Positions 1,151 to 55,263 of a stretch of DNA of 64,000 nucleotides are shown here, piece after piece (within the stretch, counting starts at the first letter, position 1; each line of letters opens with the position of its first letter). A program made the position numbers and the translations under genes. Source of the stretch: Eledone cirrhosa (lineage: Eukaryota); assembly GCA_964016885.1 (NCBI GenBank), contig OZ024742.1, forward strand, positions 75,144,001 to 75,208,000, given 5' to 3'. Below the pieces are notes generated by a model. That model saw only the letters and a list, made by a program, of their open reading frames with translations. It did not search any database and had not been told where the DNA came from.

Positions 1151-1187
1151 CCCAAACTCTTTCGGATTATACATCCATTATCAAGGA
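1151..1187 (-). ncRNA. Hammerhead ribozyme, U3-A8 core variant
   Basis: Reverse complement: TCC-TTGATAA-T-GGAT-gtata-ATCC-GAAA-GAGT-TT-GGG, followed by AATAAA. Confidence 0.65.
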
Positions 1188-2151
1188 GGATCCGTAGGGG
1201 GAACATAAAGAAATCGGAGATTTATTTTCCTGGTCGCTGTTGTATATATATAACAATAACTGTTAATTGCCTTAACATGAAGCCAAAATGACACCAAGTG
1301 AAACCAAGCAAATATTATCTCCATAAACCTAAACTCAACTCATGAGATACATACCCTACTTGACATAAAGTAAAAACAATCAGACCATTCACAAATATAC
1401 TCTAAACACTTCTAGCATACCGGTAAACAAACCTACATCAATTATTGGTATGGGAGCGACAGACGTCATCGGGCTACAGCTATCGTATTACATAGTTTCT
1501 ATATAACTCATTAGGGACACAACCCCGTTATGTAATTGTTATTGTACCTACACAGAAACAGAATAATTAGCAAAAAATAACTCCGACTCTATATCACCAG
1601 CGAATAAGAACCGAATGTATACTATATTATGTTCTATCGAACATTTTAATAAATAAATATGCCATTATCATAGCTACACACACACACATACACACACACA
1701 CACACACACACACACACACATACACACCACACACACAGAATGAAACTACTTGCTTAACTTGCAATTATCTATTAACCTAATCTAAACCTTTCTAGAAATC
1801 AGCAACCCACTTAACGAACAGACAAACCCGATAAAAAAATGACATCAAACTACACCCTCTAACAATCCTTTACACACATTACACAAAACCTGAAACTAAC
1901 CATTAACTTAATAATTTACCGCCCCCGCAAAAAACAACAACAAAAAACAACAACAAAAAACAACAACAAAAAACAAAAATCAACAACAACGCACAAAAAA
2001 AAACAAAATAAAACAAAACTGGATCAATAAAAAGTCAAACTCAAACTAAGTTAGAAGCTTACACTAAATAAGCTTGCACTAAACAAAACAAATAAACTAG
2101 ACTCCGCCTACACAACACAAAAAAAAAAAAAAATTGACAACACGTAATAAT

Positions 2152-2291
2152 GGTTTCTTATATAGGCACAAGGCCAGCAATTTTTGGGGAGGGTAAAGTC
2201 GATTAAATCGAACCAATACGTGACTGGTATTTTATTTTATCGACCCCGTAAGGATGAAAGGCAAAGTTAACCTTGGCGGGATTTGAACTCA
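2152..2291 (-). mobile_element. 5'-truncated SINE with 16-bp target-site duplication
   Basis: SINE core (reverse complement of ...ctttgcctttcatccttacggggtcgataaaataaa...). GACAACACGTAATAAT lies at both 2136-2151 and 2292-2307. Confidence 0.85.
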
Positions 2292-2626
2292 GACAACACG
2301 TAATAATAAATATGAAAGTCAATTTAAAATTAGATTCTTATATTAAACAATGTGTATAAGCTAACTAATCATTTCAATAAAATGGTTAAACCGAACTGAT
2401 AAAACCTAAAAACATTAGTTTGAACCGAACTACAAAACAACCCACGTTTTCTTTCTCCCTCTCTCTCTCACACATATATAAACACGCACACACGCACACA
2501 CACACACACACACACACACACACACACACACACACACACACACACACACACACACACACACACACACACACACACACACACACACACACATATATATATA
2601 TATATATATATATATATATATATAAC

Positions 2627-2734
2627 TGTTTCTACGTTTGGCACAAGGCCAGCAATTACCCAGTGCATTACTGGTACTTTATTTTATCGACCCCGTAAGG
2701 ATGAAAGGCAAAGTTAACCTCGCCTTTCATCCTT
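2627..2734 (-). mobile_element. Truncated SINE ending in a short foldback
   Basis: Same SINE core; TAAGGATGAAAGGC...GCCTTTCATCCTTA inverted at 2696-2734. Confidence 0.75.
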
Positions 2735-3052
2735 ATATATATATATATATATATATATAACGAAAGAAATGTGGTAAGGAACCAGGTGGACCATAACGCA
2801 CCAGAGTATTCAATACTTAGGGTAGTAGAGTGGGTAATAGGAAAATGTTCAAGACCCCGACGGCAGGGTAACTTACCGTTCGCTTACCCTGAGGCAGCCC
2901 ATCGGGCTTTTGTAGCCTCAGTACCCCCACCCACCCCAGTAAATTCTATATAGCATTGGCCGAAAACGCAATACCAGCTAAAAATATAGCAGCTGTTTTA
3001 GACTAGCTTTTTTATTATTTATTATTATTTAATTTTTTTTTTATTATTATTT

Positions 3053-3166
3053 AGTTCAAATCCCGCCGAGGTTAACTTTGCCTTTCATCCTTACGGGGTC
3101 GATAAAATAAAGTACCAGTAATGCACTGGGTAATTGATGGCCTTGTGCCAATAGTATAAACCATTA
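3053..3166 (+). mobile_element. 5'-truncated SINE
   Basis: AGTTCAAATCCCGCCGAGGTTAACTTTGCCTTTCATCCTTACGGGGTCGATAAAATAAAGTACCAG with B-box-like GTTCAAATCC and ATT tail. Confidence 0.85.
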
Positions 3167-52925: not shown

Positions 52926-53249
52926 TTTAATGATTTACAGCGCCATTTATATTAAACGCAGTCAAACTTATTCTGTGTGTATATATGTATATATATATAT
53001 ATATATGTATATATATATATATATATATGTATATATATATATATATATATATATATATATATATATATATATATATATATATATATATATATATATATAT
53101 ATATATATATATTAGAAAGTGAGGTTTTCTTTACAAAATGAAAAATAACCGAGGTGTCCTACACGAGTGGAAGTATAAAGAAAAAGGGATGAAATCGAAA
53201 ATGCAACTGAAGTCTTATTTTTTTTTTAAATATATATATTTATTTGGTT

Positions 53250-53287
53250 CCTTTACCGGTTTCGCAGTTCTTCTGCTTTTCAAAAGG
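53250..53287 (-). ncRNA. Hammerhead ribozyme, U3-A8 variant
   Basis: Reverse complement: CCTT-TTGAAAA-GCAG-aagaa-CTGC-GAAA-CCGG-TA-AAGG. Confidence 0.85.
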
Positions 53288-54299
53288 TGAGTTGAGATGG
53301 AGGGTCTGTGGTTTTTCTCACATCTGGTTGGTCTCTAAATGTTACTTGTTTTATATGGAAAAAGTGGCTCGAAAACCAGGTTTTTCGAGAAGTAATTTGA
53401 TTGGTTTGTCAATAATTATAATAAATTTCGCGCCAGTTCGCGTTACAATAGTTCTTCAAATAAGAGAGGGGGGGGGGTTGTCACAGGTTGTTTTTTCATA
53501 TATGAGTGTTTGAATTTCTTTTTACTTGAAAAAATGAGGCTCACGAAGGCTTTTTTTTGGTTGGTTATAAATGAAATTTGGCTGTCACGTGAACAAGTTT
53601 TCATTACATTTTTGCGCCCTTATTTGGAAAACTATTCTGTAGTCTTTATAGTGAATGTTATGACAATGGAGAGATAGTGGTCAAGGGAAAAGGGATTGGG
53701 AGAAATGTTCTGGTTCAGTGAATATGGCCAGCTGTCAGAGTTCAGGTGTCAGAGTTCAGATTTTCTATTGAGACTGAAGATATGTGTTTATTTGTGTGCT
53801 TGTGTGTGTGTATATGTGTGTGTGTGTATGTGTGTATTGGAAGATGATTCTATTAGTAGAGATGGGGGAGGGAGTTGTGTGTTATGTGTGTGTGTGCGAG
53901 TATGTTAGATAGAGAGAATATATATTTTGTGTGTGTGTATATATATATGTGTGTAGGAAAGTGGTTCTATTAGTAGAAATGGGGAGGGTGTTGTAGGTGT
54001 GGGGGTTGTTATGTGTGTGTATGGGTGTTATGTGTGTGGGAGTATGGTTAGCATGTTAAGATGAAGAGAATATATATATATATATATATTGTGTGTGTGT
54101 GTATGTGTGTGTGTAGGAAAATGATTCCTTTAGCAGGAATATTTTTGAATGAACATATTTTCCTGACTTTTTCGTGTTTGCTATTGTATTGCCAGTGCAA
54201 ACGTATGTTTAAGGTTTATTTAGTTCGGGTTTTTATTTTCTAAAGTAGAAGGTGTTATGTGTGTGTGTGTATGTCATTGTGGTGTTGACATAATGTATA

Positions 54300-55037
54300 T
54301 TAAACCTTATTTAATGTTGGTCTATATTTTTGAATAAACATATTTTCCTTATTTATTCGCATTTGTTCTGTTGTATTGTTAGCGCAAAGGTAAAATGGGA
54401 AGACTTGGAATTTGGGTGTCTTATTACTTGCGCAAATGTCTAGATATGCACTTAGTGGTATCTGTCTCGTGGTTGGATCTCGTAATTGTTGGCGATGAAC
54501 TGTCATTCTGTTTCTGAGTGTGAGTTTAGTTTGTCCTATATAATCTTCATTGCATCCTTTACATTTAATGGCATAAACTAGATTTTTTGATGAGCAAGTG
54601 AAGTGATTTTTTACAGTAAAATTTTGTCCTGATTTAAATGTATACGTGTTGCCTTCAATGAGGTGAGTGCAGGTTCCACAATTAGAGCGACCACAGTTTT
54701 TGATACTTGGTTGTGGGTTTGTGGTAGGTAATTTGGCATTGGTGAGTAATGTTTTCAGTGATTTTGGTTGTCTTTTGCTTTTGATTATTTTGTGTGCTTC
54801 AAGTGCTTTTTTCATTCTTGGGTTTTGTTTTATTAGTGGGATGTTATTGTGAATAGTGTTGTAAGCTTCCGCATTTCTTGGGTTGTTGGTTGAGATATAT
54901 GATAGAATATTGGACGTACCTTGAATTTGTTTCTGTTTCCGTAATTCATCAATGCCTATTGCTTTAGCCTTTTCTATTCCATTATTTATTAGTAATAGTG
55001 GGTACTCTCTCTCAAGTAGAATTTCCTTTAATTCTTG
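54300..55037 (-). pseudogene. PLE RT-thumb/linker/GIY-YIG fragment
   Basis: CGRSNCGTC; NLVYAIKCKGCNEDYIGQT...RMTVHR; KENMFIQKYRPTLN; upstream REYPLLLINNGIEKA. Confidence 0.88.
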
Positions 55038-55225
55038 AAGTCTTTTATTTCGCGTTTCATAATTGGAGACAATTCACTGGCGCGAAATTTATTATAATTA
55101 TTGACAAACCAATCAAATTACTTCTCAAAAAACCTGGTTTTCGAGCCACTTTTTCCATATAAAACAAGTAACATTTAGAGACCAACCAGATGTGAGAAAA
55201 ACCACAGACCCTCCATCTCAACTCA

Positions 55226-55263
55226 CCTTTTGAAAAGCAGAAGAACTGCGAAACCGGTAAAGG
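55226..55263 (+). ncRNA. Hammerhead ribozyme, U3-A8 variant
   Basis: CCTT-TTGAAAA-GCAG-aagaa-CTGC-GAAA-CCGG-TA-AAGG, followed by AATAAA. Confidence 0.85.

What the first reader, a model, noticed from the sequence alone, without database searches (positions are those of the whole stretch)
1151..55263. Compensated U3-A8 hammerhead core (TTGANAA) recurs in at least three families
Seen: TTGATAA (1178, 25209) and TTGAAAA (3480, 24914, 30405, 30895, 53277, 55230) occupy the CTGANGA position, and one copy has TTGAAGA (~24650). Established: C3 and G8 form a Watson-Crick pair in the active hammerhead, so U3-A8 preserves it. Inference: repeated double substitution argues for selection on catalysis, and strict CUGANGA searches would miss these.
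Basis: partly seen in the sequence, partly recalled or inferred. Interest (0 to 1): 0.7.

Follow-up and report, generated by a model that had tools for sequence, protein, structure and literature searches.

The report
Swapped-core hammerheads in Penelope retrotransposons
These nine sites are copies of a hammerhead RNA motif, predicted to cut itself, at the ends of three families of Penelope-like jumping genes; their U-A core pair is the inherited family state and is already in print, but one family also spread with mismatched cores, so the pair is likely favoured rather than required.

Summary
All nine sites are the 5' core strand of type I hammerhead motifs in the pseudo-LTRs of three Penelope-like element (PLE) families. 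U3-A8 is the family state, not decay: 12,149 family-B copies include only 75 non-U3, none C3-G8; family C is U3-A8 in 21 of 25; family A in 1,684 of 2,042. The three reverse transcriptases lie in separate deep lineages, so the swap likely arose more than once. It is not new: U3-A8 PLE hammerheads, with the same two heptamers, are published (PMC4209133).

The selection argument needs trimming. In family A (Hydra-type), both half-way states founded multi-copy subfamilies: C3.A8 (about 290 copies, with their own ORFs, placed between two U3-A8 clades; AU p 0.0002) and U3.G8 (22 of 39 relatives of the 24650 copy). Most likely these are slow ribozymes whose cutting is not needed for each copying round. 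Cleavage is untested; no RNA run was held. The proposed 38-nt monomer assay would probably be falsely negative. The scan noted U3-A8 and the C3.A8 subfamily before on other DNA.

The parts
1151..1187 (-). Family C minimal hammerhead, core UUGAUAA at 1184-1178, extra U before G10.1, helix III palindrome imperfect in this old copy
2742..2866 (-). Family A 3' fragment (tail and helix I 3' strand), lacks the 5' core strand
3476..3567 (+). Family A hammerhead, UUGAAAA at 3480, decayed (U16.1 reads C, helix I broken)
24568..24660 (-). Family A hammerhead of the U3.G8 subfamily, UUGAAGA at 24656-24650, helices II and III partly broken
24910..24947 (+). Family B minimal hammerhead, UUGAAAA at 24914, decayed (G17, G10.1.U11.1)
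25180..25222 (-). Diverged B-like minimal hammerhead, UUGAUAA at 25215-25209; its subfamily state was not tested
30323..30415 (-). Family A hammerhead, UUGAAAA at 30411-30405, predicted cut after C17 at 30326; inverted pLTR arm 30323-30595
30891..30983 (+). Family A hammerhead, UUGAAAA at 30895, long helix II, 5-bp helix III, predicted cut after C17 at 30980; pLTR arm 30711-30983, tail to about 31077, then (TA)n
50958..50992 (-). Canonical C3-G8 minimal hammerhead 380 nt behind the RT-EN frames below; a same-lineage comparison for family B
51370..52934 (-). Broken RT-EN frames of a separate PLE, about 50% identical to the family B protein
53250..53287 (-). Family B minimal hammerhead, intact, in pLTR arm 53174-53437 downstream of the family B ORF fragment
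54303..55073 (-). Family B ORF fragment (RT thumb, Zn-finger-like linker, GIY-YIG), 96-97% identical to near-full-length copies
55226..55263 (+). Family B minimal hammerhead, intact, palindromic ACCGGU in place of helix III, predicted cut after A17 at 55259; inverted pLTR arm 55076-55339

Best explanation
The nine sites are type I hammerhead motifs in the pseudo-LTRs of three Penelope-like retrotransposon families, U3-A8 is their inherited family state, and they likely act as slow self-cutting RNAs whose 3-8 pair is favoured but not required for the element to spread. Shown: location in pLTRs beside RT/GIY-YIG frames, family-wide U3-A8, three separate RT lineages, amplified C3.A8 and U3.G8 subfamilies in family A. 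Inferred: U-A keeps the pair geometry that places residue 8 at the cut site (role recalled from the literature), probably at a lower rate; B and C lack a stable helix III and would cut only when two copies pair through their palindromes, perhaps helped by the element's protein; A could fold as a monomer. Full-length copying starts in the tail behind the 3' ribozyme, so the template must be uncut there, which would let weak or mismatched cores persist while a restored pair is regained over time.
For: Counts with 3 and 8 free: B 12,149 copies, 99 of the first 100 listed U3-A8, 75 non-U3 in all, all A8; C 21 of 25 and 23 of 26 homologues at 74-90% identity; A 1,684 of 2,042, 3 C3-G8. RT tree: A, B and C in three starred lineages; B's lineage holds a C3-G8 element in this window, published Hydra-1_oBim has CUGAAGA. 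Family A tree on 1.8 kb with the core masked: C3.A8 subfamilies form a ladder between two U3-A8 clades; holding them together is rejected, p-AU 0.00018, two changes at position 3, so on any root at least one change restored U3-A8. C3.A8 also stands in a second sample (run X4, one contig). U3.G8 in 22 of 39 hits to a query that left the core out. Across 10 subfamilies only 3, 7 and 8 vary among 15 core positions. B dimer folds at -22.5 against -15.0 kcal/mol for two monomers. PMC11167929: hammerhead mutants do not reduce PLE insertion in vitro, and that ribozyme needs the protein.
Against: No cleavage was measured. [quoted passage not shown] Conservation of family A's core against its flank is not significant (0 of 12 against 3 of 15 variable columns), and UGA and A9 were required by my row filter. 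Only 2 of 71 family-A and 0 of 30 family-B copies start within 3 nt of the predicted cut. Single-copy folds are not better than shuffles (z -1.6 to +0.3). The link of family C to its RT rests on two loci with partial frames. The root of family A is unresolved.
Confidence: 0.7

Rival explanations
1. Cutting is essential and efficient, and the 3-8 Watson-Crick pair is under strict selection in every lineage; the mismatched subfamilies were moved in trans, or their scaffold rescues the mismatch.
For: Only C-G and U-A among 39 of 39 and 32 of 32 descriptor hits in 1 Mb; B fixed for U3-A8; a fourth family has both C3-G8 and U3-A8 subfamilies with covarying helix II; the tightest family-A clusters are U3-A8.
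Against: Those hits come from about eight families and the descriptors largely miss family A. C3.A8 elements carry their own RT-EN frames and form several successive subfamilies; trans mobilisation by a protein would not restore an RNA's own cleavage. PMC11167929 finds cleavage unnecessary in vitro.
Confidence: 0.13
2. The motifs no longer cut; positions 3 and 8 drift by transitions, and the rest is kept for another job, such as a promoter, a protein-binding fold or a signal for reverse transcription.
For: Three of the four pyrimidine-purine states founded subfamilies in A; most family-A copies start at about -41 to -30, downstream of the 5' core strand, and only 11 of 71 start upstream of U3; no excess of copies at the cut site; low activity of non-G-C swaps in PMC9901934.
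Against: U4, G5, A6, A9, G10.1-C11.1, GAAA and UH are kept across three deep lineages and across family C copies only 74-90% alike; U3-A8 rather than a mismatch is the majority in four families; U3-A8 ribozymes are reported active in vitro (PMC3088659, citing earlier work).
Confidence: 0.15
3. Copy-specific decay from C3-G8 families, or chance heptamers in AT-rich DNA.
For: The heptamer alone is at chance level; five of the nine window copies have broken pairs elsewhere.
Against: Genome-wide counts; 40 of 40 scored family-B hits identical over 151 nt.
Confidence: 0.01

Closest known systems
U3-A8 minimal hammerheads of Schistosoma mansoni Cercyon PLEs (Cervera and De la Pena 2014, PMC4209133; parts 1-2 of 4 and supplement passages read)
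   Same: Type I motif in pLTRs, U3-A8 in place of C3-G8 (about 1,300 hits there), the same heptamers UUGAUAA and UUGAAAA in its supplement, palindrome in place of helix III (B, C), extra nucleotide between 9 and 10.1 (C), G10.1-C11.1.
   Different: Different host; here at least three RT lineages carry it; B lacks the extra nucleotide; A has a 5-bp helix III and a long interrupted helix II; amplified mismatch subfamilies are not mentioned in the parts read.
Natural C3-G8 to U3-A8 covariation in hammerheads (Perreault et al. 2011, PMC3088659; passages read)
   Same: Same compensatory core change, described as natural and as active in vitro.
   Different: Reported as rare scattered examples, not as the fixed state of families with thousands of copies.
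Hydra clade of PLEs (Craig et al. 2021, PMC8557442; section 11, passages and supplement passages read)
   Same: Family A shows DKT, an RW motif, a CxCX5C linker, a C-terminal endonuclease-like region, about 3 kb length and (TA)n targets.
   Different: Hydra hammerheads are described as canonical (Hydra-1_oBim CUGAAGA); family A has U3-A8, C3.A8 or U3.G8, and RWR for RWK.
Poseidon element PAc of Anolis (PMC11167929; passages read)
   Same: pLTR hammerhead upstream of a tail at which reverse transcription starts.
   Different: Canonical C3-G8 core; tested biochemically (protein-assisted, dispensable for insertion in vitro), which nothing here is.

Membership tests
Type I hammerhead ribozyme | Core N3-U4-G5-A6-N7-N8-A9, G12-A13-A14, A15.1-U16.1, H17 around three helices, helix I open | tested here: met
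   Met in 30411, 30895, 53283, 55230 and in the family majorities; broken at single positions in 3480 and 24914.
Type I hammerhead ribozyme | Watson-Crick pair between positions 3 and 8 | tested here: met
   U3-A8 in 8 of 9 window sites and in the majority of A, B and C; not met in the C3.A8 and U3.G8 subfamilies of A, including 24656.
Type I hammerhead ribozyme | Rfam hammerhead model match | tested here: not met
   None of the nine among the 150 listed of 159 hits at E up to 5; the only hammerhead hit listed is a C3-G8 motif at 39616-39686, below the gathering score.
Type I hammerhead ribozyme | Site-specific self-cleavage after H17 | not testable with these tools
   No assay possible; indirect test by copy starts at the cut site gave 2 of 71 (A) and 0 of 30 (B), inconclusive.
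Minimal PLE hammerhead (min-HHR) | Palindrome instead of a stable helix III, allowing a dimer | tested here: met
   B ACCGGU, dimer fold predicted; C AUAU, AAUAUU or AGAUUU. Not met by A, which has a 5-bp helix III.
Minimal PLE hammerhead (min-HHR) | Unpaired nucleotide between 9 and 10.1 | tested here: inconclusive
   Present in C (U), absent in A and B.
Penelope-like elements | RT plus C-terminal GIY-YIG endonuclease in one ORF | tested here: met
   GIY-YIG above its Pfam cut-off at 54303-55073; 771-aa family-B frame in L092; family-A RT and endonuclease-like frames in L088, L124, L308-L315 (not scanned against Pfam). Family C only by partial RT matches in two loci.
Penelope-like elements | pLTRs in tandem or inverted arrangement, tail at one end, (TA)n targets | tested here: met
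   Inverted arms 30323-30595/30711-30983 and 53174-53437/55076-55339; tandem pLTR-ORF-pLTR in L088 and L104; tail on one copy only.
Hydra clade (family A) | DKT, RWK, CxCX5C linker | tested here: met
   HSDKTG, RLRWRT (R for K), CNCPDRSIC read from L088, L010, L124 against the definition in PMC8557442 section 11; by motif, not by a tree with the published sequences.
Neptune clade (family B) | GxKF, DKG, CX2-5CxxC linker | tested here: inconclusive
   GLKF, ADKG, CGRSNCGTC present, but the linker is shared with Nematis and no reference sequences were in the tree.

The most novel reading that the evidence does not exclude
Family A records a ribozyme's compensatory path in action: an autonomous Hydra-type retrotransposon passed through several successive master lineages with a C3.A8 mismatch and one with a U3.G8 wobble, and regained U3-A8. 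Because its scaffold can fold as a monomer and a cut at the 3' pLTR would remove the start site of reverse transcription, the weakened 3-8 pair is a brake that tunes cutting down, and the natural subfamilies are a ready-made series linking cleavage rate to transposition success.
Probability: 0.3. Interest if true: 0.6.

Novelty: new member of a known kind. Interest (0 to 1): 0.33.

Why it matters
The U3-A8 core itself is known, so the main value is practical: over 14,000 exact-pattern copies in this genome are invisible to CUGANGA searches and to Rfam, and U3-A8 is the state of several abundant PLE families here rather than a rarity. The part that could matter more is family A. What PLE hammerheads are for is an open question (PMC8557442, PMC11167929). 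A family in which U-A, C.A, U.G and a few C-G cores sit in nearly the same scaffold, each with a copy number and a place on a tree, makes it directly testable how weak the ribozyme may be while the element still spreads.

Tried and rejected
Rfam gave nothing for the nine sites. The repeat finder was swamped by the 9.4-15.2 kb array. The first genome pattern was one C short, so its 0 hits are not used. I first read the three CTGAGGA copies as a C3-G8 sister subfamily; one search showed they lie inside the C3.A8 subfamily, scattered on the tree. No RNA holder listed, so nothing on expression or RNA ends; the laid runs are contigs. Laying on the U3.G8 copy was inconclusive: G8 in about 2% of depth in X1 (possibly the source sample), absent from 2 contigs of X4. 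Rooting family A failed: an open fork, and a C3.A8 copy basal with only three rows. The label 'CG' on the window ORF at 43938 is withdrawn: the hammerhead at 45583 lies beyond a (TA)n tract in a separate head-to-head insertion. The link of family D to the ORF in L266 was rejected as a likely separate insertion. The 80 of 126 figure is inflated by gap columns and not used. Primary kinetic papers on the 3-8 pair and the 2017 dimer paper were not held.
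Full report
Setting. The window is G000:C3:75144001-75208000 of a 3.0 Gb animal genome. The host was not identified by any search; an octopus is my guess from recall of its repeats. The window is dense in microsatellites and mobile-element fragments.

Observation. All nine heptamers are present, five on the minus strand. TTGANAA alone is not enriched (87 seen, 87.8 expected). The context is: each site is the 5' core strand of a type I hammerhead fold. On 100 evenly spaced 10-kb stretches (1 Mb), a descriptor with positions 3 and 8 free returned 29 C3-G8 and 10 U3-A8 hits and none of the other 14 combinations; shuffles gave about 1 hit per Mb, none C-G or U-A. A second descriptor gave 21 and 11, with 0 in five shuffles. 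These hits come from about eight families by my reading, and family A is largely missed because of the internal loop in its helix II.

Anatomy. Family A (3480+, 24656-, 30411-, 30895+): helix I CCCC/GGGG, G10.1-C11.1, a small internal loop, 9 more pairs, an upper hairpin, a 5-bp helix III and a GUC site; the 30895 copy's minimum-energy fold shows the three-way junction (z -1.46, not significant alone). Family B (24914+, 53283-, 55230+, diverged 25215-): 4-bp helix II and the palindrome ACCGGU in place of helix III; two copies are predicted to pair through it (-22.5 against -15.0 kcal/mol). Family C (1184-): extra U before G10.1, 4-bp helix II, short palindrome. Five window copies carry breaks (3480, 24656, 24914, 25215, 1184) and are probably dead.

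What carries them. The motifs lie in pseudo-LTRs of Penelope-like elements: inverted arms at 30323-30595/30711-30983 and 53174-53437/55076-55339, a GIY-YIG frame between the latter, tandem pLTR-ORF-pLTR units in L088 and L104, a tail on one copy and (TA)n flanks. Family A's protein has DKT, RWR and CxCX5C, the Hydra-clade marks of PMC8557442; an earlier scan note gave this lead. Family B's has GLKF, DKG and CX4CxxC, Neptune-like. Family C sits beside a third RT type in two loci. In an 18-row RT tree A, B and C fall in three starred lineages. B's lineage includes an element in this window with a C3-G8 motif (50989-); published Hydra-1_oBim has CUGAAGA; a relative of C in L126 has C and G at 3 and 8 in a damaged core. 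Several origins of U3-A8 are therefore likely; exchange of the ribozyme module is not excluded.

Family state. With 3 and 8 free in exact patterns: B has 12,149 copies, 99 of the first 100 listed are U3-A8, and all 75 non-U3 copies keep A8; non-A8 copies were not counted separately. C has 25: 21 U3-A8, 3 C3.A8, 1 U3.G8; among 26 distinct homologues at 74-90% identity, 23 are U3-A8 and none C3-G8 (three duplicate or non-homologous kinds of row set aside). A has 2,042: 1,684 U3-A8, 19 U3 with another base at 8, 339 non-U3, of which 3 are C3-G8. Copy-specific decay is refuted.

The result against strict selection. Of the first 100 non-U3 family-A matches, 86 read CUGAGAA, a C3.A8 mismatch, about 290 copies by proportion, with helices and GUC intact and their own RT-EN frames. 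The same two letters stand in one contig of a second sample. On a 33-row DNA tree over 1.8 kb with 3, 7 and 8 masked, C3.A8 elements form a ladder of starred forks between two U3-A8 clades; with 4 short or doubtful rows dropped, holding them together is rejected (p-AU 0.00018; the group was named after an earlier tree had been seen), and two changes at position 3 are needed. The root is unresolved, but either root needs at least one change from C3.A8 to U3-A8. Across 10 subfamilies, 3, 7 and 8 vary and the 12 other core positions do not, but 3 of 15 flank columns vary too, so this is not significant, and my row filter required UGA and A9.

Mechanism. Shown steps are the location, the family states and the trees. 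Inferred: the U-A pair keeps the geometry that positions residue 8 (recalled role of its 2'-OH), at some cost in rate. PMC3088659 calls such pairs active in vitro; PMC9901934 found only the G-C swap rescued in its scaffold. Minimal PLE motifs cut weakly and only as dimers or with an added helix III (PMC4209133). In PAc the ribozyme needs the protein, core mutants insert as well as wild type, and uncut RNA is the main template (PMC11167929). That fits here: copies carry the uncut site and the tail behind it, 2 of 71 A and 0 of 30 B copies start within 3 nt of the cut, and most short A copies start at -46 to -30, after the 5' core strand. A weak core would then be tolerated or favoured.

Literature and novelty. 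PMC4209133 (parts 1-2 of 4, supplement passages; one supplement file not searchable) reports U3-A8 in Schistosoma PLEs, about 1,300 hits, with UUGAUAA and UUGAAAA. PMC3088659, PMC9901934, PMC11167929, PMC3884650, PMC7151607, PMC7229834: passages only. PMC8557442: passages, section 11, supplement passages. bioRxiv 10.64898/2026.07.22.740005: term search, one passage, no U3-A8. Searches for hammerhead with C3U and G8A, U3-A8 (one paper), G8A, octopus and Penelope, U3-G8 wobble found no account of amplified mismatch subfamilies; the library lacks most subscription papers. Earlier scan notes report U3-A8 PLE motifs repeatedly, the C3.A8 subfamily, and mixed cores in a retrozyme family.

Verdict. 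Real, correctly spotted, already known in kind. The selection inference holds loosely across families and fails in its strict form within family A. Interest 0.33.

Noticed in passing
L262-L291, L116, L182, L305, L306: A fourth hammerhead family (957 exact copies, often about 320 bp apart in tandem, retrozyme-like) with U3-A8 and C3-G8 subfamilies and covarying helix II.
   Followed up: partly
window 303-, 664+, 39670-, 42197+, 42487-, 45569-/45583+, 50989-: At least five more hammerhead families with canonical C3-G8 cores in the same window; two (45583, 50989) have U10.1.U11.1.
   Followed up: partly
window 45481-45643 and over 20 loci: Head-to-head palindromic insertions whose arms often begin just at the 5' edge of the hammerhead; the tail resembles family A's.
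   Followed up: partly
family A copies in 1.54 Mb of loci not fetched with family-A queries: 5' starts pile up at -46 to -30 from the cut site, inside helix II; family B starts pile up at -73 to -69. Transcript start or reverse-transcriptase stop.
   Followed up: partly
L108, L123, L286, L049, L103, L110: A diverged sister of family A with a different helix II; all copies seen were cut short before the 5' core strand, so its 3/8 state is unknown.
   Followed up: no
window 63489-, 31942-, 55658-, 56000+, 34882+, 35211-: Repeated CTGANGA motifs that do not fit a plain type I fold; some may be the rewired hammerheads of earlier scan notes.
   Followed up: no
window 9486-15235: A 5.7-kb AAC-rich tandem array (periods 12, 15, 27) with long low-complexity open frames.
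   Followed up: no
window 17924-18558: Frames that look like a mariner transposase fragment by recalled motifs; Pfam gave no hit for 18211-18555.
   Followed up: no
window 48322-49151: Four SINE-like units of 192-195 bp in tandem.
   Followed up: no
L126 about 3500, minus strand: A family-C-like motif with core CAGUUGA (C3 and G8 kept, 4 and 6 changed) behind an RT-EN frame; a single copy, may be decay.
   Followed up: no
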